NCBI GenBank assembly: GCA_903838565.1
Contig: CAILZB010000112.1
Coordinates: 97,098 to 161,097 of the forward strand
Length of the DNA stretch: 64,000 bases
Direction of reading: 5' to 3'
From: an uncultured beta proteobacterium
Lineage (GTDB): Bacteria > Pseudomonadota > Gammaproteobacteria > Burkholderiales > Burkholderiaceae_C
The position numbers and the translations under genes are program-made. The notes under the pieces were generated by a model that did no database searches, was not told the origin of the DNA, and saw only the letters and a list, made by a program, of their open reading frames with translations. This document shows positions 42,014-60,509 of this stretch, piece by piece; the first letter of the stretch is position 1, and each line of letters starts with the position of its first letter.

Positions 42014-42024
42014 GATGGGTCCGT

Positions 42025-42432: not shown

Positions 42433-42516
42433 GATGGTTCTCCTGAGTCGTTGGCTTGATCCAGCGGCTGCCGCGGAACCGGCTTTGCCGGGCCGCTGGC
42501 AGCGCCCCCTTCAGCC

Positions 42517-42587
42517 GTAGGTCGGGTTAGCGAAGCGTAACCCGACATGAGGCCGTCGTCGGGTTACGCCCTGCGGGCTAACCCGAC
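42517..42587. repeat. REP-like double-hairpin element (second copy) inside the kamE-kal intergenic region
   Basis: GTCGGGTTA-gcgaagcg-TAACCCGAC and GTCGGGTTA-cgccctgcgggc-TAACCCGAC; hairpin order swapped relative to the copy at 34053. Confidence 0.7.
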
Positions 42588-42644
42588 CTACGCCCGTGGT
42601 GCTTGTCGATTTCCGCGTCGCAGACAGCTCGCATTGACGCATGG

Positions 42645-43400: not shown

Positions 43401-43401
43401 C

Positions 43402-45992: not shown

Positions 45993-46008
45993 GGCCGGAC
46001 GCAGCCTT

Positions 46009-47046: not shown

Positions 47047-47057
47047 GCGTACCCTGT

Positions 47058-48239
47058 TCAGTTGCTTTGTGTTGGCAGGCTGTAGTCCTGGCCCAGGCCG
47101 GGCATCTCGACCGTCATGCCCTTGTAATTGCGGCACTTGATGGTGGTGCCGCTGCCGTCGAGCAGCGCTTCTTCGCGCACATAGCTGGGGATGATAGGCA
47201 ATTTGCCCAGGCCGCCCATGCCGTCGACGATGAAGGTCGGCACCGCGGGGCCGCTGATCCAGCCGCGCAGGCCTTCATACAGCTCGAGCATGCGGCGGTG
47301 CGGCACGATGAAATGGTGCGCGCCTTCGACCATGTCGGTGGAATAGACGTAGTAGGGACGCACGCCCATCTCGACGGATTGCAGGAACAGTTCGCGCATG
47401 ACTTCCACGTCGTCGTTCACGCCTTTGAGGCACACGGTCTGCAGGCCCATCATGATGCCGGCTTTCTGGATCAGCTTGACGCGCTCGCGCAGCAGCGGCG
47501 TGATTTCCTTGGGGTGGTCGATGTGGATGTTGACCATCTGCACGCGGTGCTTTTCCAGCACGGCGCACAGCTCGGGCGTGACGCGCGTGGGCATCTGCAC
47601 CACCATGCGCGAGCCGATGCGCAGGAAGCGCACGTGCGGCGCGCGGCGACGGATCTCGCCCAGGATGTAGTCCAGGCGCTCGTCGGTGAAGGTGAAGGGA
47701 TCGCCGCCGGAGAGCAGCACGTCCTGGATCTGGGTATTGCCGGCGATGTAGTCGATCGACGCCTCGATCTGGTCTTTCGCAACCGCGCCGTCGGGCTGGG
47801 ACACCATGCGCTTGCGCGTGCAGAAGCGGCACAGCGTGGCGCAGGTATTGCTCACCAGAAACAGCACGCGCCGGGGATAGCGGTGCACGACGCTGGTGCC
47901 CGGGATGGTGTCGCCCTCCTCGCCCAGCTGATCGAGCGAGGTCTTGAAGCCGGGTTGGGTCTCTTCATGGTGCGAGGGCAGGTACTGCTTGCGGATCGGG
48001 CAGTTCGGATCGTCCCGGTCCATGAGCTTGACCATGTAGGGCGTGACGGCGATGGCGAACTTGTCGTACACCGTGTCGTTCACGTTCTCGATGTTGCTCA
48101 GCAGGCCGTCGAGCTCGGAGTGGTGCGTGTAGCGGCGCGCAAACTGCTTTTGCCAGGATTCCGATGCGGGATCATAGGCGTCCAGCTCGGCGCGCGTGAG
48201 CAGTTTGCGGGCGGGGTTGAAGTCGACTTTTTGCAGCAT
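47058..48239 (-). CDS. kamA: lysine 2,3-aminomutase (radical SAM)
   Basis: CATLCRFCTRK radical-SAM cysteine motif; KamA-family C-terminus. GGAGAAA Shine-Dalgarno before the ATG at 48239. Confidence 0.9.
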   Translation of the reverse strand: MLQKVDFNPARKLLTRAELDAYDPASESWQKQFARRYTHHSELDGLLSNIENVNDTVYDKFAIAVTPYMVKLMDRDDPNCPIRKQYLPSHHEETQPGFKTSLDQLGEEGDTIPGTSVVHRYPRRVLFLVSNTCATLCRFCTRKRMVSQPDGAVAKDQIEASIDYIAGNTQIQDVLLSGGDPFTFTDERLDYILGEIRRRAPHVRFLRIGSRMVVQMPTRVTPELCAVLEKHRVQMVNIHIDHPKEITPLLRERVKLIQKAGIMMGLQTVCLKGVNDDVEVMRELFLQSVEMGVRPYYVYSTDMVEGAHHFIVPHRRMLELYEGLRGWISGPAVPTFIVDGMGGLGKLPIIPSYVREEALLDGSGTTIKCRNYKGMTVEMPGLGQDYSLPTQSN

Positions 48240-48409
48240 GGGGTTTCTCCGGCGGGTGTTCGTTGTGGGTGTCACCGGGCGCTGCCACGGCGAGGGGGAA
48301 ACCCAAGTCTAGGGACGGGTGCTGCCAGACGAAAGTGGCAAAGTGACTGAAGTGCCGTGCAAATTTCAGTCACAATGCTCGCCATTGATCCACATTGACT
48401 GAAACACCC

Positions 48410-48853
48410 ATGTCTGCCTCCCTGGATACCCTGGACCGCCAGCTGATCGAGCTGCTCAAGGTCAACGCGCGCCTGCCGATGGTGAAGCTGGCCAAGGCGC
48501 TGGGCTGCGCGCGCAGCACGGTGCAGCTGCGCCTCAAGTCGCTGGAGGATGGGGGCGTCATCACCGGCTACACCGTGGGCGTGGCGGTGACCCGATCCGC
48601 GGCCAGCATCCGGGCCATGGTGCTGATTTCGACCGAGTCCAAGAACGAAGCCGAGGTGGTGCGCTCCCTCTCCAAGCGGCACGAGATCACCAAGCTGTAT
48701 TCGGTCAGCGGGCGCTACGACCTGTGCGCCATGCTCTCGACCGAATCGACGCACGAACTCGACGTCGTGATCAACAAGATCTGCGCGGTCAAGGGCGTCG
48801 TCGACACCTTCTCTACCATCCTGCTGTCGACCAAGCTGGAGCGGCCCGAATAG
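48410..48853 (+). CDS. Lrp/AsnC-family regulator divergent from kamA
   Basis: HTH_AsnC plus RAM domain. ATG at 48410. Confidence 0.85.
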   Translation: MSASLDTLDRQLIELLKVNARLPMVKLAKALGCARSTVQLRLKSLEDGGVITGYTVGVAVTRSAASIRAMVLISTESKNEAEVVRSLSKRHEITKLYSVSGRYDLCAMLSTESTHELDVVINKICAVKGVVDTFSTILLSTKLERPE

Positions 48854-49012
48854 GCCATGCACAAGCCGATCCAGGCTGTCGGAAAGACCGCCTTACCGGG
48901 TCCACAGGGCGCTGCCGCCATTGTTCGTACCGTCCTTGTTGGCCGCCGCAATGCACGAGCTTGTGTGGTCCGCGACGACACGGCACAATCTCCCGCAAGG
49001 GAGACCGTTTGA

Positions 49013-49561
49013 ATGGCGGAGCTGACAAGATTGCTGGGCGCAGCGCAGCAGGGAGATGTTGAAGCGGCAGGAAAGGCGTTCAGCCTCCTTTACGAGGACC
49101 TGCGCCGCTTGGCCAGGTCGCGTCTGCACCGGCATCAGAGCATGACGCTGCTGAACACGACCGCACTGGTGCACGAGTCATACCTCAAGCTGGTGGGTAA
49201 CGAGTCGGCGCCCGCGGGAGACCGCAACCATTTCTTCGCGTATGCAGCCACGGTGATGCGATCCGTGATTGTCGACTTCGCTCGGGCGCGGCTGGCGCAA
49301 AGTCGCGGCGCAGGAGCGGAACATCTGGTTCTGGACACCGCACTGTCGGAGCACCTCAGCGCGCCCGAAAGCGACGTCTTGCGAGTGCACGAGGCTCTGG
49401 ACGTTCTGGCTCAGGTCGACAAGTCGCTGGCGCAGATCGTTGAGATGCGCTATTTCGGGGGTCTGTCCGAACTCGAGATCGCTCAGGTGCTGGGAATCTC
49501 GGAGCGTACCGTGCGGCGCAACTGGGAAAAGGCCCGCCTGCTGCTGGCCGCGGCGCTATGA
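49013..49561 (+). CDS. ECF-type sigma-70 factor of the Ser/Thr-kinase-associated subgroup (ECF43/TIGR02999-like)
   Basis: Conserved sigma region 2 and 4 (LSELEIAQVLGISERTVRR HTH); N-terminus typical of the kinase-linked ECF group; a Ser/Thr kinase lies immediately downstream. Confidence 0.8.
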   Translation: MAELTRLLGAAQQGDVEAAGKAFSLLYEDLRRLARSRLHRHQSMTLLNTTALVHESYLKLVGNESAPAGDRNHFFAYAATVMRSVIVDFARARLAQSRGAGAEHLVLDTALSEHLSAPESDVLRVHEALDVLAQVDKSLAQIVEMRYFGGLSELEIAQVLGISERTVRRNWEKARLLLAAAL

Positions 49562-49586
49562 GTAGCGCGCTTGATGGTGTGAATAA

Positions 49587-52067
49587 ATGAAGCTGGACGT
49601 GGACACCCTGCGGCGCCTTGCGCCACTGCTGGACACCGCCATCGATCTGGACGAGACTGAGCGCGAATCCTGGCTTGCCGGCCTGCATGGCGACGAAGCC
49701 TTGCTTGCACCGCTGCTGCGCGACCTGTTGAATCGCAAGGCGATTCAATCCGACATGGATGCACTGGAGCGCGGCGCCAGTTTCACGGGTCTTGAAGGCG
49801 GCAACCTGGACGAAGAGGCTCGACACCAGGCCGGCGAGACGGTGGGCCCCTACCGGCTCCTGCGTGAACTCGGCCGCGGCGGCATGGGCTCAGTCTGGTT
49901 GGCGACACGGGTCGACGGCGCGCTCAAGCGCGAGATCGCACTCAAGCTACCGCACACCCATATGGCGCGGCGCCAGCTGGCGGAGCGCTTTGCCAAGGAA
50001 CGCGACATCCTGGCCAGTCTGGTCCACGCAAATATTGCCCGGCTCTATGACGCAGGCATTTCTTCTGACGGGCAACCCTATCTGGCCCTCGAATACGTCG
50101 AAGGCCAGTCACTGACAGCTTGGTGCGATGCGCGTCAACTCACTGTCAAGGGCCGAGTCGAGCTGTTCCGCCAGGTGCTGGCTGCGGTTCAGTACGCCCA
50201 CAGCCAGCAGGTGATTCACCGGGACCTCAAGCCCAACAACATCTTGGTGACGCCTCAAGGCGAGGTCCGGTTACTCGACTTTGGCATCGCCAAGATGATG
50301 GACGAACAAGGGCAGGCCCACGAAACCGAACTGACCCAGGCCGCTGGTCGCGCGCTGAGCGTGCAGTACGCGTCGCCTGAACAGATACTGGGTCAGCCGG
50401 TGATGGCCACGAGCGACGTCTACTCCCTCGGGGTTGTGCTGTATGAGCTCCTGACCGGATCTTTTCCCTATTTCAAACGGCGCGACACGCGGACCGTGAT
50501 CGAGGATGGCATTCTCAGCGTCGAGGCGACACGGCCCAGCCTGATCGTCAGCGCGCCCGAGATGGCGGCGCGGCGCGGCACAGACCCGAACAAACTCAGC
50601 AGCCTATTCAAAGGTGATATGGAAAGCCTGCTGCAAAAAGCGCTGAAGAAGAATCCGGCCGAACGCTATGCGACGGTCCAAGACATGGCGATGGATCTGG
50701 ATCTCTACCTGCAGGGCAAGCCGGTGCGGGCCAAGCCAGATTCCAACTGGTATCTGGGGCTCAATTTCTTCCGCCGAAACCGAGTCGCCGCGACTGCAAT
50801 CATGGCCCTGATGATGCTCGGTGGCATTGCGCAACGAGATTGGCTGGGCGCGATATTGACGCCGCCTCAACCTCGCGCTGAGCCACCCGCTCTGTCGATG
50901 CTGATGACGCGCTTCACGGCGTTGGACAACGACGCCGGCTCGATCCAGTTGGCTGAACAACTGCCGCGCGAATTGACGATGGGTTTGACCGCTTGCTGCC
51001 GCGACCAGAAGGTTGTGCGAAGCGATCTGCTTGACGGTTCAGGTGGCGCTGTGCGCGGGAACGTGCGCTATCGCGTCGAGGGCGATGTGCAGTCGACCCC
51101 AAGTGGCGCGGGCGTGAATCTGAGGCTGATCGAACTGTCCAGCGCAAGTCAGGTCTGGGCCACACGTTTTGATCTTCCGCCACTTGACGGTTCGTTTGAA
51201 GCCAAGCGCAAGTTGCGCCGGCTCACGGGCTTGCTTGGCCACGCGCTCGATCGGTCCGAAAGGCGTCGGGTGCTGGCACTGCCGCTGGACAAGCTGACCG
51301 CGATGGAACTGGTGCTGCGCGGCAAGGCGGTCTGGGAAGAGTCGGCGTCGCTCAAGAACACTCTCGCGGCGCAGGAGTTGTATGCGGCCGCACTGCGCCT
51401 TGACCCGAACCTTGTACCCGCATTGGTGGAAAATACCATGAACTGGGATGCGATGATGGATGTCGATCCCAGGGCTGACAGGGCGCACGCCGTCCGTGAA
51501 ATGGACAAGTTGTCGGCGCGCGCGGTCGCACTTGATCCTGCAGACGCCTGGGCATGGGACGCGCGTGCGACCGCACTGATGGACGAGAAGCACTGGGATG
51601 CAGCGGTCGCGGCAGTCGACAAGGTGATCGCGATCGACCCCTTGTGGCAACGCCCTTATGGGTTCAAGGCGACACTGAAGAACCTGACGGGGCGGCCGGC
51701 AGAAGCTTTGCCGCTGGTGGACTACGCGGTGTCGATTGATCCAGAAAACGCGGGCTGGCCGCTGCGGGTGGCCTGCCAGGCTCACATGCTCTTGGGGCAG
51801 TACGAGAAGGCCATCGCGAATTGCGAAAAGGCGGCAGGATCGGAACCGACGGACTGGTGGACCGCCATGATTCTCGCGGCATCCTACGCCCAACTCGGCG
51901 AGATGAAGAAAGCCGTCGCCGCCAAAGATCTGGTGCTGCGCTCGGTCCCCGAATACAGCATCGCGCGCCTGCAGGCAACCATGGTTTCCGACGTGCCGGC
52001 TTACCTGAAGATGGCTGAGACAACCTGGTATGCGGGGCTGCGCAAGGCAGGACTTCCCGAGAAATAG
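49587..52067 (+). CDS. Ser/Thr protein kinase with TM segment and C-terminal periplasmic TPR-like domain
   Basis: Hanks kinase motifs GRGGMGSVW, HRDLKPNN, DFG and SPE; one TM helix; TPR-like C-terminus; 826 aa. Confidence 0.85.
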   Translation: MKLDVDTLRRLAPLLDTAIDLDETERESWLAGLHGDEALLAPLLRDLLNRKAIQSDMDALERGASFTGLEGGNLDEEARHQAGETVGPYRLLRELGRGGMGSVWLATRVDGALKREIALKLPHTHMARRQLAERFAKERDILASLVHANIARLYDAGISSDGQPYLALEYVEGQSLTAWCDARQLTVKGRVELFRQVLAAVQYAHSQQVIHRDLKPNNILVTPQGEVRLLDFGIAKMMDEQGQAHETELTQAAGRALSVQYASPEQILGQPVMATSDVYSLGVVLYELLTGSFPYFKRRDTRTVIEDGILSVEATRPSLIVSAPEMAARRGTDPNKLSSLFKGDMESLLQKALKKNPAERYATVQDMAMDLDLYLQGKPVRAKPDSNWYLGLNFFRRNRVAATAIMALMMLGGIAQRDWLGAILTPPQPRAEPPALSMLMTRFTALDNDAGSIQLAEQLPRELTMGLTACCRDQKVVRSDLLDGSGGAVRGNVRYRVEGDVQSTPSGAGVNLRLIELSSASQVWATRFDLPPLDGSFEAKRKLRRLTGLLGHALDRSERRRVLALPLDKLTAMELVLRGKAVWEESASLKNTLAAQELYAAALRLDPNLVPALVENTMNWDAMMDVDPRADRAHAVREMDKLSARAVALDPADAWAWDARATALMDEKHWDAAVAAVDKVIAIDPLWQRPYGFKATLKNLTGRPAEALPLVDYAVSIDPENAGWPLRVACQAHMLLGQYEKAIANCEKAAGSEPTDWWTAMILAASYAQLGEMKKAVAAKDLVLRSVPEYSIARLQATMVSDVPAYLKMAETTWYAGLRKAGLPEK

Positions 52068-52107
52068 GAGACGGCGCGATCTGACTTCTGAAAGCAGCTG
52101 GCTCCGT

Positions 52108-52155
52108 CCAGCCCGCAAGCAGCGCCGCATTCCCACCCGCCGCCATGGTGCTGCT
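52108..52155 (-). pseudogene. 48-bp fragment homologous to the putA 3' end (tail AAGGNAALLAG; stop codon changed to Trp)
   Basis: About 87% identical to 55602-55649; translation preserves the PutA C-terminal peptide. Confidence 0.6.
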
Positions 52156-52273
52156 CTCGACCGAATCGACGCACGAACTCGACGTAGTCATCAACAAGAT
52201 CTGCGCGGTCAAGGGCGTGGTCGATACCTTCTCGACCATCCTGCTGTCGACCAAGCTGGAGCGGCCGGAGTAA
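52154..52273 (+). pseudogene. 120-bp duplicate of the 3' end of the lrp gene at 48410-48853
   Basis: 8 mismatches versus 48734-48853, all synonymous; ends with its own stop; an ATG is created at the junction with the putA-like fragment. Confidence 0.7.
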
Positions 52274-52276
52274 GCG

Positions 52277-53845
52277 TCAATCGCCTGCGGGGAGGAACGA
52301 CTCGGGACTTGAGTTCTGCTGCCGGGCTGCGTCAATGATGGGGTCGAATATTCCGCTCCGCAACAGCTTCATCACCGCCGCCACGACCGCAGGATCGAAC
52401 TGCGTTCCGGCACCCCGTTCCACCTCGGCCGCAGCGTCCTGCACGCTCCATGGCTCCTTGTACGGGCGACGGCTGATCAAGGCGTCGAACACGTCAATCA
52501 CGCTGACGATGCGGGTGGCCAGCGCGAATTCGCGCGATGGGCGTCCTTCCGGGTAGCCGGTGCCGTCCCAGCGCTCGTGGTGGTGGGTCGCGATGTCGCA
52601 GGCGGTCGCGAGGTAGGCGTCGTTGTCCAGAATGCTCTTGCCAATGCCGGTATGCGTGCGCACGATGGCGTACTCGGCTTCGTCGAGCCTGCCGGGCTTG
52701 CGCAGGATCGCGTCGGGTATGCCGATCTTTCCCACGTCGTGCAGGCGGCTGGCACGTCCCACGTGGGCAGCCTCTTCCTCCGACAGACCCATCTCGATGG
52801 CGACGAGCCGCGTGTAGCGGTCGATGCGATTGATGTGGCTGCCGGTGGCGCTGTCCTTGAACTCGGCGATGCGCGCCAGCATGTCGATCATGTGGTCGTA
52901 GGAGCGCGTCAGGTCCACGTGCAGGCGCAGGTTTTCCAGCGCGTTCGAGCACTGCTGGGCCATCATCGAGATCAGCGCCCGGTCGGAGGCGTCAAGGTCG
53001 TGCGTGGGCTCGATGTAGACGAAGCCGATGGGCTTGTTCTGGACCTTGAGCGGCACCACGTAGGCATCCTTGCGCAGCATGTCCGGCGCCTGCCCCGTCA
53101 ATATCGCCTGTGTGCACTGAGCGCGGATCCGCTCGAACCCCTCCTTGTTGTCCAGCCTGCCGGACGCGGCCTGCAGGGTGGCTTCGCGCTCGTCGAAGGT
53201 GGCGATGACGCCGTCGTTGGTGGCGATGAAACTTGAATCCGAGAGGTTGCACAGACCCACGATCTGCGTCAGGACGCCCTGAAAGAACTGGTTGAGCGAG
53301 CGGTTGCTGATGCGGTAGATGTCGGGTGCCGCCGCCAGCACGTGCTGCAAGCCCACGCGGTTCAAGTCGATGGAGCGCAGGTCGCGGTAGGACTTGATGG
53401 CCGAGCGCACCGCGGTGTAGAGGTGCGTTGCCGTGAGTTCGGTTTTGTCCTTGTAGTCGTCGATGTCGTAGTGGTCGATGACAAAGCGCTCGGGGGCAAT
53501 GCCCGGCTGGCCGGTGCGGATGATCAGCCGCACCATGGCGTTGCCCAGGTCCTTGCGGATGTACTCGACCAGACGCAGGCCGGCGTCGTCGGTCTCCATC
53601 ACCACATCCACCAGGGCCACGGCAATGTCCTTGTGCCTGGAAAACATTTCGCGCGCCTCGAGGAAAGACGAGGCCTCGATGATCTCGAGATCGCGATCGG
53701 CGAAGCGAAAACCCTTCAGACTCATGCGCGTGAGGGCCAGCATGTCGGGTTCGTCGTCGACCACCAGCAATTTCCAGGTGTGACGCGGCACCGTGCCAGC
53801 GGCAGCGGCTTGCGGTGGATCGTTGCGCGTGCGTATCAGCTTCAT
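52277..53845 (-). CDS. response regulator with HD-GYP phosphodiesterase domain
   Basis: REC domain (LLVVDDEP), central GAF-like/DUF3369 region, HD-GYP domain (HHERWDGTGYP). Confidence 0.85.
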   Translation of the reverse strand: MKLIRTRNDPPQAAAAGTVPRHTWKLLVVDDEPDMLALTRMSLKGFRFADRDLEIIEASSFLEAREMFSRHKDIAVALVDVVMETDDAGLRLVEYIRKDLGNAMVRLIIRTGQPGIAPERFVIDHYDIDDYKDKTELTATHLYTAVRSAIKSYRDLRSIDLNRVGLQHVLAAAPDIYRISNRSLNQFFQGVLTQIVGLCNLSDSSFIATNDGVIATFDEREATLQAASGRLDNKEGFERIRAQCTQAILTGQAPDMLRKDAYVVPLKVQNKPIGFVYIEPTHDLDASDRALISMMAQQCSNALENLRLHVDLTRSYDHMIDMLARIAEFKDSATGSHINRIDRYTRLVAIEMGLSEEEAAHVGRASRLHDVGKIGIPDAILRKPGRLDEAEYAIVRTHTGIGKSILDNDAYLATACDIATHHHERWDGTGYPEGRPSREFALATRIVSVIDVFDALISRRPYKEPWSVQDAAAEVERGAGTQFDPAVVAAVMKLLRSGIFDPIIDAARQQNSSPESFLPAGD

Positions 53846-55458
53846 GCCTGGGTCCTCTCAATGTCTGCGGCCAGGTGGGCGGGAAACCGGATCACAAAGC
53901 GGCATCCTGCGCCGGGTTGGCTGCGGCACAGGATCGTTCCGCCGAGCTGGGCGGTGACGATGTTGTAGCAGATGTACAGGCCCAGCCCGGAGCCGCCCTC
54001 GCTTCGTCTTGTGGTGTAGAAAGGCTCGAATATGCGGGCCAGTTGGTCGGCCTCCATGCCCTTGCCGGTGTCGCTGAAGGTCAACAGCACCTCGTTGCGA
54101 ACCAGCTCGACCCGGATGTCAATCTTGCCCATGCGCCGGCCTTCGTCAAACGCGTGCTGAACCGCGTTCATCACCAGATTGGTCAGCAGTTGCTGCACGA
54201 CGCCGGGCATGCCGTCCAGGCGCAAAGCGTCAGCGCAGTGCACGCTCACCTCGATCGGCAGCCTCTTCAGGGTGCCGGCCAGCGCAAACAGCACGTCCTG
54301 GATGAGTTCGTTCATGTCGAAGGCGCGAATCTGTTCGGACGTCTGATCGGTCGAAGTCCGCTTGAAGCTCTGCACCAATTTTGCAGCGCGGCTCAGGTTG
54401 GCCAGCGCCATGGCGCCGCCCTGGTGCAGCGCCCCGATCTCGGCGCGCAACGCCTCCTCGCTCACCTCTTCCTGGCCCAGCATCGTGTCGATGCGTGCCA
54501 GCGACTCTTCGTTGTGCGAGACGGCTCCCACGGCGACACCGATCGGGGTGTTGATTTCGTGCGCGAAGCCCACGACCATGCGTCCCAGCGAAGCCATCTT
54601 CTCGCTTTGCACCAGTTCGCCGCGGGTGGTCTCGAGTTCGCGGATATTGCGCGCCAGATCGAGCCAGCGCTTGCGCAGCAACTCCAGCAGCAACCATCCC
54701 AGCGCGGCCGTCACGGCAAAGACCGCTGCATACGTGAGCTGCGCCTTGCGGATGCCGGGGGCGGTGGCGGCGACGATCGGTTCGTACAGCTGCGACACAC
54801 TGATGCCGCCGCGCACGTCGCCGATGCGATAGCCCTGACTGGCGTGGCAGCTCATGCACGGCTTTTCCACCAGCAGCGGCGCCATGTAGCGCAAGTGGTC
54901 GCCGTGATCCGTGGGCTCGATGCTGAGCACTTCGTTGGCGCCGGCTTCAAACGCCTTGAGCGACTGCGTCTCCCAGGCATCGGCGGCGTTCTCGGGGCGG
55001 ATCGGGCGCAGACTGGTCAGTCGAAACACGGCCCCCGTGTCCGACTCCGCCATCTCGGCGATGAGCCGCGTCATGTATGCAGGGTTGACCAGCGTCAGCT
55101 TTTGACCGTCGGTGGTGGTGACGTCGCGCCGCTCCAGTGGCAGATACGGATTGGGTTGGGTTCGCTCGCTCACCGGCACATAAATTCCGCCGTGGCTTGC
55201 GTTCCAGCTGCGCGTGAGCACCACCATCCGGAACATATTGCGCGCGCCCTCGGCGGCGATCTGGATGCTCTGCGACCGAATATCGGCCAACTGCCCCGAA
55301 AGCAGCACACCGGCGCCCGCAGCCCAGAATGCCAGCAGCAGCAGCCACCAGCGGCGCAGTCGGAACGGCGCCGGAACGATGGAGCTGAAGGCAGGCGGAT
55401 CGATGGGCATGGGCAGGGGCCAGTTCGGCAAGGCTGAGCCCACTGTAACGTCAACCAA
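53842..55458 (-). CDS. sensor histidine kinase with DUF3365-like periplasmic domain containing a CxxCH motif
   Basis: Two TM helices; CMSCH motif; HisKA (FAHEINTP) and HATPase_c (GSGLGL). ATGA overlap with the response-regulator gene. Alternative start at 55410. Confidence 0.8.
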   Translation of the reverse strand: MVDVTVGSALPNWPLPMPIDPPAFSSIVPAPFRLRRWWLLLLAFWAAGAGVLLSGQLADIRSQSIQIAAEGARNMFRMVVLTRSWNASHGGIYVPVSERTQPNPYLPLERRDVTTTDGQKLTLVNPAYMTRLIAEMAESDTGAVFRLTSLRPIRPENAADAWETQSLKAFEAGANEVLSIEPTDHGDHLRYMAPLLVEKPCMSCHASQGYRIGDVRGGISVSQLYEPIVAATAPGIRKAQLTYAAVFAVTAALGWLLLELLRKRWLDLARNIRELETTRGELVQSEKMASLGRMVVGFAHEINTPIGVAVGAVSHNEESLARIDTMLGQEEVSEEALRAEIGALHQGGAMALANLSRAAKLVQSFKRTSTDQTSEQIRAFDMNELIQDVLFALAGTLKRLPIEVSVHCADALRLDGMPGVVQQLLTNLVMNAVQHAFDEGRRMGKIDIRVELVRNEVLLTFSDTGKGMEADQLARIFEPFYTTRRSEGGSGLGLYICYNIVTAQLGGTILCRSQPGAGCRFVIRFPAHLAADIERTQA

Positions 55459-55601
55459 GCCAGGACAACATCAGGTCAAGACCTGAGGCAGCGCCATGAA
55501 ACACCTGACATGTCCACCCCTGGCCGTCCCTGGGTGCCGCCGTTTACCGGGCTGAAGGTGGATGCCCCGAGGGGCGTTCTCCATTCGGGTCGCTCAGGCC
55601 C

Positions 55602-58600
55602 TCAGCCCGCCAGCAGCGCCGCATTCCCGCCCGCGGCCGTGGTGTTGACGGTGAGGGTCTGCTCGGCGCAGAAGCGGTACAGGTAGTGCGGGCCACCGGC
55701 CTTGGGGCCGGTGCCGCTCAGGCCTTCGCCGCCAAAGGGCTGCACGCCCACGACGGCACCGATCTGGTTGCGGTTGATGTAGACGTTGCCGATGTGCGAG
55801 GCCCGCGCCAGCGCCTGTGCCCGTGAATCGATGCGGGTCTGGATGCCCAGCGTCAGGCCGAAACCGAGCGCGTTGATCTGCTCGATCACCGCCAGGGGGT
55901 CGCCGCTCCAGCGCACGATGTGCAGCACCGGGCCGAAGATTTCCTGCTTCATGTCGGCGACGCGGGCCACTTCAAAGGCTTGGGGCGCAACCAGGTTGGC
56001 GATCGATGCCTGCGGCGTCGCTGCGCCGGACAGCAGCGGCCTGGCTTCACGCTGCAGCCGCAGCAGTTCCCGCTGGATGCCGTCGAAGGCTTCCCTGTCG
56101 ATCACCGGACCCACGTCGGTCGCCAGATCGGAGGAATCGCCTGTGACCAGCTCCTTGGCCGCGCCCTGGATCATGGCGATCACGTGGTCGGCGATCTCCG
56201 CGTGCACGCACAGCAGGCGCAGCGCCGAGCAGCGCTGGCCCGCGCTGCGAAACGCCGACTGCACCACGGCGTCGCTCACCTGCTCGGGCAGGGCCGTGCT
56301 GTCCACCAGCATGGCGTTGATGCCGCCGGTCTCGGCGATCAGCGGCACGATGGCGCCATCCTTGGCGGCCAGCGCGCGCTGGATGATCTTGGCCACCGGC
56401 GTGGAGCCGGTGAACACCACGCCAGCCACGCCGCTTGCGGCCACGAGCGCGGCGCCGACCGTCTCCCCCGGTCCGTGCAGCAGCTGCAGTGCACCGATGG
56501 GCACGCCGGCCGCATGCAGCAATTTGACAGCCTCCAGCGCCACGGCGGGCGTCTGCTCTGCCGGCTTGGCCAGCACGGTGTTGCCCGTGGCCAGCGCGGC
56601 TGCGACCTGGCCCATGAAGATCGCGAGCGGGAAGTTCCACGGGCTGATGCAGACCCAGGGGCCGCGCGCAGTCAGGCGCAACTCATTGTTCTCGCCGGTC
56701 GGCCCGGGCATGTCGATCGGCGCCATCACGCGCTCGGCCTCGTTCGCGTAGTAGCGCAGGAAGTCCACCGCCTCGCGCACTTCGGACACGGCGTCGCCCC
56801 AGGTCTTGAAGGCTTCCTTCACCAACAGAGCGCAGAACTTCGGCAGCTCGGCTTCCAGCGCGTCGGCGCCTCGGCGCAGCGCGGCGGCGCGCTCGCTCAC
56901 TTCCGTCTTGCTCCACTTTCTATAGCTGGCCTGGCTCGTGGTCAACGCAGTCTCGATCAACCCCAGATCGAACACGGGCACGGCCGGCAACTGAAGCGAC
57001 TGCAAGGCCGCCAGCAGCGGCTCACGCATCGTGGCAACGGTCAGGTCCAGGCCCGCGCTGTTCTTGCGCGAGGGGCCAAAGAGTGCCAAAGGCAGCGGCA
57101 GCGAGGAGTCGGGCTCGAGCCGCAGCGGCGAGATCAGCAGCTCGTTCATGCTCACCGATTCGTCCGCCAGCTGGTGCACGAAGGACGAGTTGGCGCCGTT
57201 CTCCAGCAGACGCCGAACAAGGTAGGCCAGCAGGTCCTTGTGCGCGCCCACCGGCGCGTAAACGCGGCAGGCGATCAGCGGGTTCTTCAACACCTCACGG
57301 TACACGCCCTCGGCCATGCCGTGCAGGCGCTGCAACTCAAACGGTGCCGCAGTCCGGGCGCCCATCTGCACGATGGCGGCGATGGTGACGGCGTTGTGCG
57401 TGGCGAACTGCGGGTAGATCGCGTCGGGCGCATCCAGCAAAGCGGCGGCGCAAGCCAGGTAGGCGATGTCGGTGTGGTGCTTGTGCGTGAACACCGGATA
57501 GAACGGCAGGCCCATCTCCTGCGCACGCTTGATCTCGGCGTCCCAGTACGCGCCCTTGACCAGGCGGCACATCAATCGGATCTGGTACTTGCGCGCTATT
57601 CCCGTCACGTGTTCGATCAGCTCCAGCGCGCGCGTTTGATAACTCTGCATCGCGAGGCCGAAACCCGTCCACCGGGGAAAGTGTTGTGCCACCAGAGCGG
57701 CCAGTGCTTCGAACACCTCCAGCGACAGTTCCAGCCGGTCCACTTCCTCGGCGTCGATGGTGAGGTTGATGTTGGCTCTTGCCGAGCGCTCGCACAGGCC
57801 CCACACGCGCGGCAGCAATTCGGCCATGACGCGCGCCTGCTGCGCGTCCTCATAGCGCGGATGCAGCGCGCTGAGCTTGATCGAGATGCCGTCGTTCTGT
57901 TCGCAGGGCAGCGTGCTGCTGGCCTGGGCCGCGATGGCCTGAATCGCGTATTCGTAGCTCGCCAGATGCTGCAGCGCATCCGCGTCGGTGCGTGCGCCCT
58001 CGCCCAGCATGTCGTAGCTGTATCGGAGCCCCCACGCTTGGCGCTGCGCGTCCTGCGCAGCCCCCCGAGGGGGCTGTTCCGACTTGGGGCGGCCCGGCGC
58101 CGGAACGCGCAGGTTCTTCAGCTTGCGCTGCGCCGAAGCAGCCTCGTTCATGGCCTCGGCAATGGTCTGGCCCAGCACGAACTGGCGACCCAGCAACTGC
58201 ACCGCGCGCAGCGTCGCCGCCACCACCGACCTGGCGCCGAGCTTGGCAAAGATGCCGCTGGGCGCCTCGCCGTCGGGCAGGAACTTCTTGCTCAGCGCAA
58301 TCGCGGTGCTCGAGAGCCGCACCAGGGTCTTGTCGCCCGCACTCTCAAAATCGGCGCGGCCAAGCTGGTCGGCCGTGAGTGCGATCGCGGTCTCGGCGTC
58401 GGGAACGCGCAGCAGCGCTTCAGCCAGACGCATCAGTGCCAGGCCTTCAGCGCTGGAGATGGGGTATTCCTTGAGCAGGCTCTCCATCGCCCAAAAAGGC
58501 GGCGGATTCTGGCGCACGGCCAGCACCCAGGGCGTGGCCACCTTGGCCGCTGCGGCCCAGTCCAGCGATTGCGCCAGAGCGGCGAGGTGCCGGGAAACGA

Positions 58601-58649
58601 TTTCGGCTTCGGGGCGGTAGGAAATGGGCAGACGCATGGCGGACTCCAA
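55602..58649 (-). CDS. putA: bifunctional proline dehydrogenase / P5C dehydrogenase PutA (1015 aa, no RHH DNA-binding domain)
   Basis: PRODH TIM barrel plus ALDH domain with catalytic Cys; full length. Confidence 0.9.
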   Translation of the reverse strand: MESAMRLPISYRPEAEIVSRHLAALAQSLDWAAAAKVATPWVLAVRQNPPPFWAMESLLKEYPISSAEGLALMRLAEALLRVPDAETAIALTADQLGRADFESAGDKTLVRLSSTAIALSKKFLPDGEAPSGIFAKLGARSVVAATLRAVQLLGRQFVLGQTIAEAMNEAASAQRKLKNLRVPAPGRPKSEQPPRGAAQDAQRQAWGLRYSYDMLGEGARTDADALQHLASYEYAIQAIAAQASSTLPCEQNDGISIKLSALHPRYEDAQQARVMAELLPRVWGLCERSARANINLTIDAEEVDRLELSLEVFEALAALVAQHFPRWTGFGLAMQSYQTRALELIEHVTGIARKYQIRLMCRLVKGAYWDAEIKRAQEMGLPFYPVFTHKHHTDIAYLACAAALLDAPDAIYPQFATHNAVTIAAIVQMGARTAAPFELQRLHGMAEGVYREVLKNPLIACRVYAPVGAHKDLLAYLVRRLLENGANSSFVHQLADESVSMNELLISPLRLEPDSSLPLPLALFGPSRKNSAGLDLTVATMREPLLAALQSLQLPAVPVFDLGLIETALTTSQASYRKWSKTEVSERAAALRRGADALEAELPKFCALLVKEAFKTWGDAVSEVREAVDFLRYYANEAERVMAPIDMPGPTGENNELRLTARGPWVCISPWNFPLAIFMGQVAAALATGNTVLAKPAEQTPAVALEAVKLLHAAGVPIGALQLLHGPGETVGAALVAASGVAGVVFTGSTPVAKIIQRALAAKDGAIVPLIAETGGINAMLVDSTALPEQVSDAVVQSAFRSAGQRCSALRLLCVHAEIADHVIAMIQGAAKELVTGDSSDLATDVGPVIDREAFDGIQRELLRLQREARPLLSGAATPQASIANLVAPQAFEVARVADMKQEIFGPVLHIVRWSGDPLAVIEQINALGFGLTLGIQTRIDSRAQALARASHIGNVYINRNQIGAVVGVQPFGGEGLSGTGPKAGGPHYLYRFCAEQTLTVNTTAAGGNAALLAG

Positions 58650-58773
58650 TGGATATATATTTCTATGATCTTCGATTGATTGATGAATTAATCACCAATT
58701 AACCAACAATAAATAGATTTATATGCTCAAAGAGCGGCCGATCCGCGTCGGCCATCGCCACCCCGATCGGGCG

Positions 58774-59127
58774 TTAAAGCCGGCGGATGGGCCGGTTCGT
58801 TTTCAGCGCCACGGCGCCTGCGGAGATGCCATTGACCACATTCACATAGCCCTGCTGCTGCATGAATTGCATCGCCTGCCCGGAGCGCGCGCCCGACTGG
58901 CAGTACAGAACAATCTGCTTTGACTTGTCCGCAGCGAGCTCTGCGTAGCCCTGCACAAACCGGTCCAGCGGCAGGTTCACGGCGCCGTCCACATGACCGG
59001 ACGCAAATTCACCGGGTCCGCGCACGTCGATGATGAGCGCATCTGCGTCCCATGCCGGCGTCTCCAAATTCGGCGCCGCAGACAATAAATTATTCAACCA
59101 GTTCACGTTGTCCTTTCTGGAGCCCAA
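58774..59127 (-). CDS. single-domain rhodanese (sulfurtransferase)
   Basis: Active-site loop CQSGARS; 117 aa. Confidence 0.8.
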   Translation of the reverse strand: MGSRKDNVNWLNNLLSAAPNLETPAWDADALIIDVRGPGEFASGHVDGAVNLPLDRFVQGYAELAADKSKQIVLYCQSGARSGQAMQFMQQQGYVNVVNGISAGAVALKTNRPIRRL

Positions 59128-59138
59128 CCCGCGATGGG

Positions 59139-60509
59139 TCAGCGCTGCAATTGTGCATTCAAGGGCGCAAGACGGGATTCGTCGAGTTGCCCGGCGAGCG
59201 CCTCGAGCCGCAACTGGCTCAGCATCACGTCGACCCGCGCCTGCAGCAGGGCGAGTTCGGCACTGCTCGCGTCATTTTCGGCGTTGAGCAGATCCAGCGT
59301 GGTTCGGTCTCCCACCTGGCGCCCCAGCCGCGTGGCGTCCAGCCGCGAGCGAGTCGCCTGGAGTGACCCGGCCAATGCGCTGATGCGCGCGGTACCGGTG
59401 CGCAAGCCCAGCCACGCGGCCTGCGTCTGCTGGCTGATCTGCTGGCGCGTGCGCTCGACCTCGGCCTGTGCCTTGTCCTCCAGGCGCAGGGCTTCGTCCT
59501 GGCGCGCACTGCGATAGCCGCCGGTGTAGAGCGGAATCGTCAACTGCACGCCGATCATCTGCTGGTGCTGTCCATTGCTCGCGGCACCAAAGTCACCGTT
59601 GCCACTGAGCCGCTGCTGGCCCGCCTGGGCCACCAGATCGAGCGTGGCGCCGCCCGCAGCGCTGAACTTGCGCGCCTCCTCGTGCGCCGCCTGGGACTTG
59701 GCCATCTGCATGCGCAGCAAGGGGTTCTGGCCCAGCGCCAGCGCCTGCCAATGGGGCAACGGCGCCAGGTTGTCGGTGTCCACCGACGCTTCGGCCGACA
59801 GCGGCTGCAGCTTGGGCGAGACCAGGCCGGTGGCGTCGTCCAGCGCCGTCTGCGCGATCTGCAACTCACTCTGCGCTCCCAGCCACTGCGAGCGCAACGC
59901 CTGCGAGCGCGCTGACGCTTCGTGCGTGTCGGTGATGGGCGTGTCGCCCAGCGCAAACCGGTCCTTCGCCTCCACCAGCGCCTTGTCCACCGCCTGGCTT
60001 TGCTGTTGCAGCAGATCGACCCGACGCTGCGCCAGCAGCACGTCAAAGTAGCGCTGCGCCGTGTGCAGCATCAGATCCTGATGCGACGACTGCCACTCGA
60101 GCTCGGCCGCGTCTGCGGCGATTTCAAGCTGGCGCGACTGGGCCGAGCGCTCACGGTTGATCAGCGGCTGGCGCGCACTCAAGCTGAGGCTGGTGGAGGT
60201 GCCGTGGTTGACGGAGGTGTTGAAGCCCACGCCATTGGACTGGCCCAGGCCCTGCGCCGAGAAGTTCGCACCCGTCGTCTCCGAATGGGAATTCATCGCG
60301 CCCACGCCGCCCTCGATCTGCACCATGGGACGCCACAGCGCCGAAGACTGCTCGCGCCGCGCGACGCCGGCCTGGCGCGCCGCCTGCGAGATCGCGACCT
60401 CGGGGTCGTGCGCACTGGCGGCCTGCCAGACCTCCAGCAGATCGGTGGCGCCAGCCGACAGCGCGACCAACGCCAAGATGGCGACAGAAATGGCTTTGAG
60501 TTTCATCAT
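59139..60509 (-). CDS. TolC-family outer-membrane efflux protein
   Basis: Signal peptide; duplicated OEP domains. Start at the ATG at 60509. Confidence 0.8.
   Translation of the reverse strand: MMKLKAISVAILALVALSAGATDLLEVWQAASAHDPEVAISQAARQAGVARREQSSALWRPMVQIEGGVGAMNSHSETTGANFSAQGLGQSNGVGFNTSVNHGTSTSLSLSARQPLINRERSAQSRQLEIAADAAELEWQSSHQDLMLHTAQRYFDVLLAQRRVDLLQQQSQAVDKALVEAKDRFALGDTPITDTHEASARSQALRSQWLGAQSELQIAQTALDDATGLVSPKLQPLSAEASVDTDNLAPLPHWQALALGQNPLLRMQMAKSQAAHEEARKFSAAGGATLDLVAQAGQQRLSGNGDFGAASNGQHQQMIGVQLTIPLYTGGYRSARQDEALRLEDKAQAEVERTRQQISQQTQAAWLGLRTGTARISALAGSLQATRSRLDATRLGRQVGDRTTLDLLNAENDASSAELALLQARVDVMLSQLRLEALAGQLDESRLAPLNAQLQR

What the first reader, a model, noticed from the sequence alone, without database searches (positions are those of the whole stretch)
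48727..55650. Duplicated lrp and putA 3'-end fragments bracket two different signalling cassettes (tandem-duplication or integration scar)
- Fragment A: the last 120 bp of the lrp gene (48734-48853) recur at 52154-52273. There are 8 mismatches and all are synonymous.
- Fragment B: directly abutting it, 52108-52155 is about 87% identical to the last 48 bp of putA (55602-55649). It still encodes the PutA tail peptide AAGGNAALLAG, with the stop codon changed to Trp.
- Resulting layout: lrp-tail | ECF sigma + Ser/Thr kinase | putA-tail'::lrp-tail' | HD-GYP response regulator + histidine kinase | putA-tail + putA.
- Interpretation: this is what a tandem duplication (or Campbell-type integration) of an ancestral convergent lrp/putA junction would produce, with a different two-gene signalling cassette in each copy of the spacer.
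- The exclusively synonymous divergence implies the middle fragments came from intact genes, such as a homologous locus of a related strain, rather than decaying in place.
- The junction also creates a 42-codon ORF with its own ATG that could be expressed as an Lrp RAM-domain micropeptide.
Basis: seen in the sequence. Interest (0 to 1): 0.7.

Follow-up and report, generated by a model that had tools for sequence, protein, structure and literature searches.

The report
Recombination scar joining two signalling cassettes
A 166-base patch made of the tail ends of two neighbouring genes (an Lrp-family regulator and putA) is a real but most likely non-functional scar, marking where two alternative gene cassettes that once occupied the same variable slot were spliced one after the other by recombination with DNA from a sister lineage.

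Summary
The last 120 nt of lrp recur at 52154-52273 with 8 differences, all silent. The last about 46 nt of putA recur at 52108-53, with the stop codon changed to Trp. These are the only copies in the window.

The two fragments are 5'-truncated and fused body-to-body with a 2-nt overlap. Homology stops within 2 nt of each stop codon.

Sister genomes (L091, L002) share the lrp-> ... <-putA backbone but hold unrelated cargo between the two stop codons. The slot is therefore hypervariable, and each cassette here carries both slot borders.

lrp' differs from lrp at species level (dS 0.27, dN 0). Decay in place is unlikely (P about 0.002). A plain tandem duplication is excluded because the two cassettes share nothing.

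Best reading: one illegitimate join plus one homologous exchange merged two slot alleles. The mechanism is either homology-facilitated illegitimate recombination (HFIR) or Campbell-type integration.

Contig L188 gives mechanistic support. It has another species' backbone (0 mismatches in 9,630 nt to L023) and switches, inside a 29-nt identical stretch of putA, to this window's putA-tail, HK, RR and scar block.

The 42-codon ORF has no Shine-Dalgarno sequence, and its commonest form in the population carries an I16M change. No single-cassette allele was found.

This is a clear example of a known process.

The parts
48410..48853 (+). Intact Lrp/AsnC-family regulator (147 aa), divergent from the kamA lysine-aminomutase operon. 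It forms the left border of the variable slot.
   Evidence: Pfam HTH_AsnC-type plus AsnC_trans_reg. The kam operon lies to the left. No SNPs across 7 population contigs.
48732..48855 (+). lrp tail, the reference copy of the 124-nt direct repeat.
   Evidence: the repeat finder family D1; self-BLAST E = 6e-48.
49013..52067 (+). Cassette 1: ECF sigma factor (49013-49561) plus Ser/Thr kinase with TPR repeats (49587-52067).
   Evidence: Pfam. The nearest kinase homologue outside the species is only 55% identical. No relative carries the cassette at this slot.
52068..52107 (.). 40-nt spacer between the kinase stop codon and the putA' stop position. It has no homologue in any locus fetched.
   Evidence: Contig L188 ends inside it, at the position equivalent to 52076.
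52108..52153 (-). putA': the 5'-truncated last 15 codons of a putA gene, with the stop changed to TGG.
   Evidence: 89% identity to 55603-55647. Codon-level comparison with 9 other putA tails.
52142..52153 (.). Junction zone. The two repeats overlap by 2 nt (TG, 52152-52153). The 12-mer GCCATGGTGCTG is 10/12 identical to putA and 12/12 identical to lrp 48614-48625, so its origin is ambiguous.
   Evidence: Repeat families D1, D8 and D9; 12-mer search.
52152..52275 (+). lrp': the 5'-truncated last 39 codons plus stop of an lrp orthologue from a sister lineage.
   Evidence: 8 of 120 differences, all silent. It shares the clade-specific peptide VVINKICAV. dS 0.27, dN 0. It is equidistant (8 nt) from the window's lrp and from L095's lrp.
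52145..52273 (+). 42-codon chimeric ORF: MVL from antisense putA' plus 39 codons from lrp'. Most likely a gene-caller artefact on a pseudogene fragment.
   Evidence: No purine-rich Shine-Dalgarno sequence upstream. I16M and K23M variants exist in the population. No Pfam hit.
52277..55410 (-). Cassette 2: histidine kinase (53842-55410) followed by the REC-DUF3369-HD-GYP response regulator (52277-53845).
   Evidence: Pfam. The two-gene module is conserved as a unit, but it sits at other loci in relatives.
55411..55601 (.). 191-nt spacer between the kinase start codon and the putA stop codon. It has no homologue in relatives.
55602..58637 (-). Intact putA (1011 aa), the right border of the slot. 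Its last 46 nt (55602-55647) are the reference copy of the second repeat.
   Evidence: Pfam Pro_dh-DNA_bdg, Pro_dh and Aldedh.
55753..55781 (.). 29-nt stretch of putA that is identical in the window, L188 and L023. This is where contig L188 switches from the L023 backbone to the window-type sequence, so it is a candidate homologous crossover (anchor) site.

Best explanation
**What it is.** The block 52108-52273 is a relic recombination junction. A 5'-truncated putA tail is fused, body-end to body-end, to a 5'-truncated lrp tail that came from a sister lineage.

**The slot.** In this clade, the interval between the convergent stop codons of lrp and putA is a hypervariable slot. Different species hold different cargo there.

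**How the two cassettes came together.** Cassette 1 (ECF sigma + Ser/Thr kinase) and cassette 2 (histidine kinase + HD-GYP response regulator) were each once the sole occupant of such a slot, in two lineages. They were concatenated by one homologous exchange in a conserved flanking gene plus one illegitimate join at a 2-nt microhomology. Two routes fit:
- HFIR of a linear fragment.
- Single-crossover (Campbell-type) integration of a circularised slot fragment.

The concrete HFIR version is as follows. The recipient was lrp->ECF->STK-><-putA. Incoming DNA carrying [putA 3' part, HK, RR, lrp tail] was anchored in putA. Its far end was joined 46 nt before the recipient's putA stop. The mirror-image version, anchored in lrp, is equally possible.

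**Present state.** The scar itself has no function, and the 42-codon ORF is a by-product.

**Shown:** the repeats, the junction anatomy, slot variability, the selective signature of lrp', and fixation in the species.

**Inferred:** the existence of the two single-cassette alleles, which side was foreign, and whether the route was HFIR or Campbell-type.
For: 1. **Anatomy.** Both fragments lack their 5' parts and abut with a 2-nt overlap. Homology ends within 2 nt of each stop codon. The cassettes and spacers share no similarity.
2. **Slot variability.**
   - L091 has the same backbone (kam, lrp-> ... <-putA, rhodanese, OEP, YgaP, ACR; 86-97% amino-acid identity) but holds a HAD hydrolase plus a 79-aa ORF.
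   - L002 holds LysR, cytochrome c and nitroreductase genes there.
   - Nothing between the two stop codons is conserved.
3. **lrp' evolved as a coding gene.** 7 of 7 coding differences are synonymous (S = 30.7 sites, N = 86.3). dS is 0.27, comparable to the whole-gene dS between the window's lrp and sister species (0.30-0.54). P(7/7 synonymous) is 0.002 under in-situ decay. Unique derived changes on the lrp' branch are also silent.
4. **Relaxed constraint since the event.** There are 2 SNPs in 120 nt, one of them I>M, against 0 in the 444 nt of the real lrp.
5. **Process seen directly.** Contig L188 matches species L023 with 0 mismatches over 9,630 nt (kam, lrp*, KTSC, putA*). Within a 29-nt three-way identical stretch of putA (window 55753-55781) it switches to the window's putA tail, HK, RR, lrp', putA' and 32 nt of spacer. 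That stretch has 8 mismatches in 3,705 nt, 7 of them SNPs of the L088 haplotype. So the conserved putA 3' end does serve as a cross-species anchor, and a donor's gene-tail fragments travel with the cassette.
6. **Independent parallel.** In L015 a 71-nt repeat of the putA tail (70/71 identical) brackets a 1.1-kb single-gene insert with no integrase.
7. **Literature.** HFIR and single-crossover integration are documented to give one homologous plus one illegitimate junction, or duplications of 109-950 bp (PMC3240628). HFIR has been proposed for orphan 3'-end arrays in T6SS and Rhs loci (PMC5361080).
Against: - **No single-cassette allele found.** Neither lrp->ECF->STK-><-putA nor lrp-><-RR<-HK<-putA turned up in species representatives, JGI metagenomes or contigs carrying the exact proteins.
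- **No sampled donor.** No sampled lrp is closer to lrp' than the window's own lrp (8 differences each for the window and L095).
- **Relatives keep the module elsewhere.** They hold the HK-RR module at other loci, not next to lrp or putA.
- **Weak microhomology.** The 2-nt overlap is weaker than the 3-8 nt I recall as typical for HFIR.
- **Uneven decay of the two fragments.** putA' has three disruptive changes in 46 nt, while lrp' has none fixed in 120 nt. This is odd if both became pseudogenes at the same moment. It is partly explained if the 12-mer at the junction derives from lrp.
- **Possible partial conversion.** The first 32 nt of lrp' are identical to lrp. That weakly suggests partial conversion rather than wholesale import.
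- **L188 is one contig.** It is a single metagenomic contig that ends inside the scar spacer.
Confidence: 0.6

Rival explanations
1. Two-step origin in situ. A tandem duplication of [lrp tail, cassette, putA tail] first arose in one genome by illegitimate sister-strand exchange. One copy's cassette was later swapped for a different slot allele by ordinary homologous recombination, using lrp' and putA as flanks.
For: The b|a order of the fragments (putA tail, then lrp tail) is the classic signature of a duplication junction. The first 32 nt of lrp' are identical to lrp and all 8 differences lie to the right. This fits a crossover inside lrp' (chance about 0.06-0.11 by my estimate). Allelic replacement at this slot clearly happens between species.
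Against: It needs two rare events instead of one. The left homology available for the swap would be only 120 + 46 nt. No genome with a duplicated identical cassette was seen.
Confidence: 0.15
2. Ancient in-situ duplication of an empty lrp/putA junction, followed by neutral decay of the middle fragments and two independent cassette insertions, one into each spacer copy.
For: It has the same topology as the layout observed. putA' does carry disruptive changes: T>M, N>S and stop>W.
Against: All 7 coding differences in lrp' are synonymous (P about 0.002). No empty junction exists in any relative. The spacers share no similarity. Sister species at comparable dS lack the scar.
Confidence: 0.03
3. 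Site-specific mobile element. Under this reading the cassettes are integrative islands or transposons, and the repeated gene tails are att sites or target-site duplications.
For: Direct repeats flank each cassette. Integrative islands often rebuild the 3' end of their target gene (general knowledge).
Against: There is no integrase, transposase or recombinase domain in or next to the slot. No terminal inverted repeats appear among the 25 longest pairs listed for 46000-60000. The repeats are 45 and 124 nt long and 89-94% identical, and they end at stop codons rather than at a shared core. The G+C content of the cassettes (60-66%) is similar to that of the flanks. The L015 insert also lacks any recombinase.
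Confidence: 0.02
4. The scar is retained because it is functional. One possibility is that the 42-aa ORF yields a half-RAM-domain peptide that interferes with Lrp oligomers. Another is that the fragment acts as a 3'-UTR or terminator between the convergent kinase and response-regulator genes.
For: The ORF is intact in every contig seen and is called by gene finders. Its N-terminus, MVLLSTES, mimics the Lrp strand MVLISTES.
Against: No Shine-Dalgarno sequence. The majority form carries I16M, and a K23M variant exists. SNP density is 2 in 120 nt, against about 0.2-0.3% in the neighbouring genes. No terminator-like site lies in the scar. Folding is no better than for shuffled sequence (z = -0.27 and +0.68). 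No Rfam match. Diversity is too low for a real dN/dS test.
Confidence: 0.05

Closest known systems
Homology-facilitated illegitimate recombination (HFIR), described in Acinetobacter, Pseudomonas stutzeri and Streptococcus pneumoniae and tested in E. coli conjugation (PMC3240628; primary papers cited in PMC5361080)
   Same: There is one homologous anchor in a conserved gene, with putA seen directly in L188. There is one illegitimate joint at a very short microhomology. Foreign DNA without homology is trapped in between.
   Different: This case is inferred from natural genomes, not observed experimentally. The donor is unknown. The microhomology is only 2 nt, or 10/12 if the 12-mer is counted. 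The trapped DNA is an alternative allele of the same slot, so the donor's other flanking gene tail (lrp') is left behind as a marker.
Campbell-type single-crossover integration of a circular molecule, giving insertion-duplication (E. coli lacZ duplications of 109-950 bp, PMC3240628)
   Same: Direct repeats of the homologous segment flank the inserted DNA: 124 nt of lrp tail, or 45 nt of putA tail. The topology is identical to what is observed.
   Different: It requires prior circularisation of a chromosomal fragment by an illegitimate join. No plasmid or replicon genes are present. It cannot be distinguished from HFIR with the present data.
Orphan 3'-end and immunity-gene arrays at T6SS effector-immunity and Rhs loci ('C-terminal displacement'; Kirchberger et al. 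2017, PMC5361080; Jackson et al. 2009, cited there)
   Same: Successive insertions at one hot spot push the older module aside and leave orphaned 3' gene fragments as a historical record. HFIR was proposed as the mechanism.
   Different: No toxin or immunity genes are involved here. The cargo is two signal-transduction gene pairs. The retained fragments belong to housekeeping flanking genes on both sides. There are only two layers.
Replacement versus additive flexible genomic islands (a pangenome concept; from my own knowledge, not checked in a paper here)
   Same: Conserved flanking genes bound a slot whose content differs between close relatives (window, L091, L002).
   Different: Here two 'replacement' alleles became additive, and the junction that shows how this happened is preserved.

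Membership tests
HFIR product | Homologous exchange (anchor) on one side only, inside a conserved gene | tested here: inconclusive
   The donor and recipient alleles for the window's own event were not found. In contig L188, the same cassette block is joined to another species' backbone through a 29-nt identical stretch of putA. That shows the anchor step is feasible at this site.
HFIR product | Illegitimate joint at a short microhomology, with no extended similarity across it | tested here: met
   The repeats overlap by 2 nt (TG, 52152-52153). The sequences on either side are unrelated. The junction 12-mer has an ambiguous origin.
HFIR product | The captured DNA lacks homology to the recipient | tested here: met
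   Cassettes 1 and 2 and the three spacers share no similarity with each other or with the slot content of relatives.
Campbell-type single-crossover integration | Direct repeats of the recombining segment flank the inserted DNA | tested here: met
   124-nt repeats (94%) flank cassette 1 plus putA'. 45-nt repeats (89%) flank lrp' plus cassette 2.
Campbell-type single-crossover integration | A circular intermediate or replicon carrying the homologous segment | not testable with these tools
   No plasmid or replication genes lie in the slot. A circularised chromosomal fragment would leave no other trace.
Simple tandem duplication | Two adjacent copies of the same DNA segment | tested here: not met
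   Only the 124-nt and 45-nt ends are repeated. 48856-52108 and 52276-55602 have no similarity.
Integrase-mediated genomic island at a gene 3' end | An integrase or recombinase gene at one end of the island | tested here: not met
   Pfam domains of all slot and flanking genes include no integrase, recombinase or transposase.
Integrase-mediated genomic island at a gene 3' end | Short att core repeats shared between independent insertions | tested here: not met
   The repeats are gene tails that end at stop codons. The L015 duplication covers a different putA interval (-76 to -5) from the window's (-46 to 0).
Transposon or IS insertion | Terminal inverted repeats and a short target-site duplication | tested here: not met
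   No terminal inverted repeats bracket either cassette among the 25 longest inverted-repeat pairs listed for 46000-60000. The repeats are 45-124 nt long and imperfect.
Translated small protein (Lrp RAM-domain micropeptide) | A ribosome-binding site upstream of the start codon | tested here: not met
   The 25 nt upstream of the ATG at 52145 read CAGCGCCGCATTCCCACCCGCCGCC, with no purine-rich motif.
Translated small protein (Lrp RAM-domain micropeptide) | Purifying selection on the ORF after the junction formed | tested here: inconclusive
   There are only 2 SNPs, 1 synonymous and 1 I>M, plus a rare K>M. The I16M form is on 61 contigs against 23. The trend is towards relaxed constraint, but there is too little diversity for a test.
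Orphan 3'-fragment arrays (T6SS/Rhs-type displacement) | Polymorphic toxin and immunity cargo | tested here: not met
   The cargo is ECF sigma plus kinase and HK plus HD-GYP regulator. The resemblance is in the process only.

The most novel reading that the evidence does not exclude
The strongly conserved 3' end of putA (92-94% nucleotide identity between species, against about 80% for the rest of the gene) may act as a recurrent cross-species landing pad. HFIR-type events anchored there would capture and stack unrelated cassettes without any integrase. The orphaned tails of flanking genes would then serve as stratigraphic markers of each capture. Three lineages hint at this: the window's scar, the 71-nt putA-tail duplication in L015, and the L023/window recombinant L188. 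If so, the 124-nt and 45-nt direct repeats would also allow either cassette to be lost precisely again, regenerating single-cassette alleles.
Probability: 0.2. Interest if true: 0.55.

Novelty: new member of a known kind. Interest (0 to 1): 0.38.

Why it matters
Natural, sequence-resolved examples of how bacteria add genes at a hot spot without mobile-element machinery are few. Here both border fragments survive, so the history can be read directly. Two alternative occupants of one slot were joined, and the imported piece came from a lineage at roughly species-level distance.

Contig L188 suggests the same block is still moving between co-occurring freshwater species through a crossover in putA.

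Practical points:
- Annotators should treat the 42-aa gene call as a pseudogene fragment.
- The direct repeats predict segregating single-cassette deletion variants, which can be looked for in read data.
- Nothing here changes what is known about Lrp, PutA or the signalling proteins themselves.

Tried and rejected
- **Donor or recipient alleles.** I looked in 80 lrp loci from species-representative genomes, the Lrp 90% cluster members and their contigs, 80 RR-related JGI metagenome loci, and the contexts of the exact Lrp, ECF, RR and micro-ORF proteins. No single-cassette allele turned up.
- **Origin of the cassettes.** RR orthologues (82-76% identical) sit between ruvC/cbiX and an RND pump, or next to an ABC-F gene, never beside lrp or putA. 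The kinase has no homologue above 55%. Neither result identifies a donor.
- **Which half is foreign.** I compared sliding-window identity to L091 on both flanks. Both flanks are mosaic at 78-97%, so the result is uninformative.
- **Spacer homology.** None of the three slot spacers matches any relative or any other part of the window.
- **Function of the scar.** There is no Rfam match and no terminator- or promoter-like site in the scar. Folding energy is ordinary on both strands.
- **Composition.** The cassettes are 60-66% G+C and the flanks 62-70%, so there is no clear foreign signature.
- **Junction 12-mer.** An alternative path is a crossover at the 10/12 microhomology with lrp 48614-48625, followed by an in-frame 108-nt deletion inside lrp'. 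I judged it less parsimonious, but it is not excluded.

Full report
**1. The observation**

The region was read directly and searched for repeats.

- **lrp repeat.** The 124-nt stretch 48732-48855 recurs at 52152-52275 with 94% identity. This is the strongest repeat in the whole 64-kb window (self-BLAST E = 6e-48).
- **putA repeat.** The stretch 52109-52153 matches 55603-55647 at 40/45 (E = 7e-9).
- **Copy number.** Neither fragment has other copies in the window.
- **lrp' differences.** In the 120 coding nt there are 8 differences, all at third codon positions: 7 synonymous plus TAG>TAA. The peptide LSTESTHELDVVINKICAVKGVVDTFSTILLSTKLERPE is unchanged.
- **putA' differences.** On the minus strand the fragment reads ...STMAAGGNAALLAGW, against ...NTTAAGGNAALLAG* in putA. 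Three differences are synonymous. The other three are T>M, N>S and stop>Trp.
- **Gene content**, confirmed by Pfam:
  - lysine 2,3-aminomutase gene kamA (47058-48275, minus strand), the first gene of a kam operon
  - AsnC/Lrp regulator (48410-48853)
  - ECF sigma factor (49013-49561)
  - Ser/Thr kinase with TPR repeats (49587-52067)
  - REC-DUF3369-HD-GYP regulator (52277-53845, minus)
  - Tll0287-like histidine kinase (53842-55410, minus)
  - PutA (55602-58637, minus)

**2. Anatomy of the junction**

Both middle fragments lack their 5' parts, and the truncated ends face each other. The two repeats overlap by 2 nt (TG, 52152-52153).

On the outer sides, homology stops within 2 nt of each stop codon. 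The sequence after the lrp stop and the sequence after the lrp' stop are unrelated. The same is true for the sequences beyond the putA and putA' stops.

The three spacers are 48854-49012, 52068-52107 and 55411-55601. They match nothing in the window or in any relative. The two cassettes share nothing with each other.

Each cassette is therefore bounded on the left by an lrp stop codon and on the right by a putA stop codon.

One ambiguity remains. The 12-mer GCCATGGTGCTG at 52142-52153 is 10/12 identical to the putA tail, but 12/12 identical to lrp 48614-48625, which encodes AMVL. It occurs exactly only at those two places in the window. Two of the "disruptive" putA' changes fall inside it.

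**3. Not an artefact, and fixed in the species**

The exact Lrp, ECF, RR and micro-ORF proteins occur on dozens of metagenomic contigs from several projects. Every context shown has the full composite layout, apart from the single exception described in section 7.

Seven contigs align to 47000-59000 at 99.4-100% identity.

**4. What relatives show**

Eighty lrp loci from species-representative genomes were fetched and annotated by tblastn.

- **Genus-wide arrangement.** It is kamA<- lrp-> (KTSC->) putA->, co-oriented (L003, L008, L012, L015, L022, L023, L042, L043).
- **Window's clade** (Lrp at least 93% identical). Three lineages have putA convergent with lrp: the window, L002 and L091.
- **L091.** It shares the whole backbone on both sides: kamA 95%, Lrp 93%, PutA 87%, OEP 86%, YgaP 91%, ACR 97% amino-acid identity. 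Between the two stop codons it holds only a HAD hydrolase and a 79-aa ORF.
- **L002.** It holds about 7 kb there, including LysR, cytochrome c, a dehydratase-like gene and a nitroreductase.
- **No scars in sisters.** None of these relatives has tail fragments.

The interval between the lrp and putA stop codons is thus a hypervariable slot bounded by conserved genes. The window contains two slot-fillers in a row, each still carrying both borders.

**5. Where lrp' came from**

lrp' carries the peptide motif VVINKICAV, which is specific to the window's clade.

It is 8 nt from the window's lrp, 8 from L095's lrp and 11 from L002's.

The Nei-Gojobori estimates are S = 30.7 sites, N = 86.3 sites, 7 synonymous and 0 non-synonymous differences, and dS = 0.27. 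Whole-gene dS between the window's lrp and sister species ranges from 0.30 (L002) to 0.54 (L001).

Suppose the fragment had been a pseudogene since a duplication in place. Then about 58% of differences should be non-synonymous. Seven of seven synonymous has P about 0.002.

Changes unique to the lrp' branch (GTC>GTA, GTG>GTC, TAG>TAA) are also silent. So most of the divergence accrued while lrp' was part of an intact gene, in a lineage about as distant as a sister species.

After the event the picture changes. lrp' has 2 SNPs in 120 nt among population contigs, one of them I>M. The real lrp has none in 444 nt, and neighbouring genes run at about 0.2-0.3%.

With no fixed non-synonymous change across 86 N sites, I infer that neutral divergence since the event is below roughly 3.5%.

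**6. Mechanism**

A plain tandem duplication is excluded, because only the ends are repeated.

Integrase- or transposase-mediated insertion is not supported:
- no such genes are present;
- no terminal inverted repeats bracket the cassettes among the pairs listed;
- the repeats are gene tails that end at stop codons.

The layout is what one homologous exchange plus one illegitimate join produces when the incoming DNA is an alternative allele of the same slot. There are two equivalent routes.

- **HFIR of a linear fragment.** For example, the recipient is lrp->ECF->STK-><-putA. The incoming DNA is [putA 3' part, spacer, HK, RR, lrp tail]. The anchor lies in putA, and the far end is joined 46 nt before the recipient's putA stop.
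- **Campbell-type integration.** A slot fragment is circularised by the putA'::lrp' join and then integrates by a single crossover within the 124-nt lrp tail or the 45-nt putA tail.

Both processes are documented experimentally. In E. coli conjugation, single-crossover duplications of 109-950 bp outnumbered true HFIR events (PMC3240628). HFIR has been proposed to explain orphan 3' fragments and immunity-gene arrays at T6SS and Rhs loci (PMC5361080).

I cannot tell which cassette was resident. Identity to L091 is mosaic on both flanks.

**7. The process caught in another genome**

One contig carrying the exact RR protein has a different context: L187/L188 (ENA ERZ27313589, k141_435529, 52 kb).

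- **Layout.** It reads kam operon<- lrp*-> KTSC-> putA*-> HK-> RR-> <-lrp' putA'->, then 32 nt of the spacer, then the contig ends.
- **Left part.** From its left end to a point in putA it is identical to species L023, with 0 mismatches in 9,630 nt.
- **Right part.** From that point on it is the window's sequence, with 8 mismatches in 3,705 nt. Seven of them are SNPs of the L088 haplotype.
- **Switch point.** The switch lies in a 29-nt stretch identical in all three sequences (window 55753-55781).
- **Reference state.** The L023 genome itself has its own sequence after putA and no HK or RR.

A 29-nt shared stretch is far shorter than the assembler's final k of 141. I therefore judge an assembly chimera unlikely, though it is not excluded. 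This is a single contig.

If it is real, it is a very recent transfer of cassette 2 from the window's species into a species whose putA body is only about 82% identical. The transfer was anchored in the conserved putA 3' end, and the donor's orphan gene tails travelled along. That is the kind of event proposed for the origin of lrp' in the window.

A second parallel lies in L015. There, a 71-nt repeat of the putA tail (70/71 identical) brackets a 1.1-kb insert. The insert carries one IPTL-CTERM gene and no recombinase.

**8. The cassettes**

- **HK-RR pair.** It is a conserved two-gene module found down to about 45% identity. In relatives it lies elsewhere, either between ruvC/cbiX and an RND pump near the dcw cluster or next to an ABC-F gene.
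- **Kinase of cassette 1.** Outside this species it has no homologue above 55% identity in the 5.8-billion-protein collection.
- **Composition.** G+C content does not mark either cassette as foreign.

**9. The 42-codon ORF**

- **Origin.** It is a chimera: MVL comes from antisense putA' and 39 codons come from lrp'.
- **Translation signal.** There is no purine-rich Shine-Dalgarno motif in the 25 nt upstream.
- **Population variants.** The window form is on 23 contigs, an I16M form on 61 and an I16M+K23M form on one.
- **Other signals.** There is no Pfam or Rfam match, no terminator-like site and no unusual folding.

It is best treated as a gene-caller product on a pseudogene fragment. Function is not excluded, because population diversity is too low for a selection test.

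**10. Weaknesses**

- Neither single-cassette allele nor a donor closer to lrp' than the window's own lrp was found.
- The microhomology is only 2 nt.
- putA' looks more decayed than lrp'. This is partly explained if the junction 12-mer derives from lrp.
- The first 32 nt of lrp' are identical to lrp. That leaves room for a two-step history: duplication in place, then allelic replacement with a crossover inside lrp'.

**11. Verdict**

The refined reading is a merger of two slot alleles by one illegitimate and one homologous exchange.

It is a clear natural example of a known process, with a probable live instance in L188. It is not a new kind of element. The scar and its ORF are most likely inert.

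Noticed in passing
L188 1-13335 (= L187); switch point L188 9631-9656 = window 55753-55781: This contig is identical to species L023 over 9,630 nt (kam operon, lrp*, KTSC, putA body). It then becomes the window species' putA tail, HK, RR and scar (8 mismatches in 3,705 nt) and ends 8 nt short of the kinase stop codon. It is probably a very recent inter-species recombinant anchored in putA. It is a single contig, so an assembly chimera is not excluded.
   Followed up: partly
L015 14528-14598 and 15706-15776: A 71-nt direct repeat of the putA 3' tail (70/71 identical) brackets a 1.1-kb insert. The insert carries one IPTL-CTERM/HpiC1-like gene (14646-15398, minus strand) and no recombinase. This is an independent case of a putA-tail duplication next to an inserted gene.
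   Followed up: partly
window 47097-47967 (kamA) and 56670-58518 (putA): SNPs between population contigs are clustered. There are 19 in 870 nt of kamA (L081, L083, L084). There are about 40 in 1.9 kb of putA (the window and L082 against L081, L084, L088 and L090). Almost all are synonymous. They look like imported recombination tracts of about 2% divergence in an otherwise 99.9% identical population.
   Followed up: no
L003, L008, L012, L015, L022, L023, L042, L043 versus window, L002, L091: Across the genus, putA follows lrp on the same strand, often with a small KTSC gene between them. In the window's clade the putA-rhodanese-OEP-YgaP-ACR block is inverted relative to lrp. The slot studied here therefore arose through an older rearrangement.
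   Followed up: partly
window 40000-48275 (and L081 2783-9830): A complete lysine-fermentation-type gene set lies divergent from the Lrp-family regulator in a freshwater betaproteobacterium. It includes kamA, a KDD-like dehydrogenase, the beta-lysine 5,6-aminomutase subunits, BKACE and a thioesterase. This 'lrp' is probably the kam operon's regulator rather than global Lrp.
   Followed up: no
window 34053-34128 and 42515-42592: Two 33-nt repeats (97% identical) and a 77-nt imperfect palindrome. They look like REP-type intergenic elements. Similar palindromic repeats occur in many of the related loci.
   Followed up: no
window 38099-38289 and 38318-38508: An internal tandem repeat with a 219-nt period (74% identity over 191 nt) lies inside a long ORF (37657-39801 or 37744-39852).
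   Followed up: no
window 49587-52067: The Ser/Thr kinase with TPR repeats of cassette 1 has no homologue above 55% identity outside this species in the 5.8-billion-protein collection. The neighbouring HD-GYP regulator has many homologues at 76-82%. The two cassettes therefore have very different phylogenetic depths.
   Followed up: partly
window 51664-52335 (minus strand): A 223-codon open frame runs antisense to the kinase 3' end and is in frame with putA' once its stop became TGG. It is most likely a high-G+C artefact rather than a gene.
   Followed up: no
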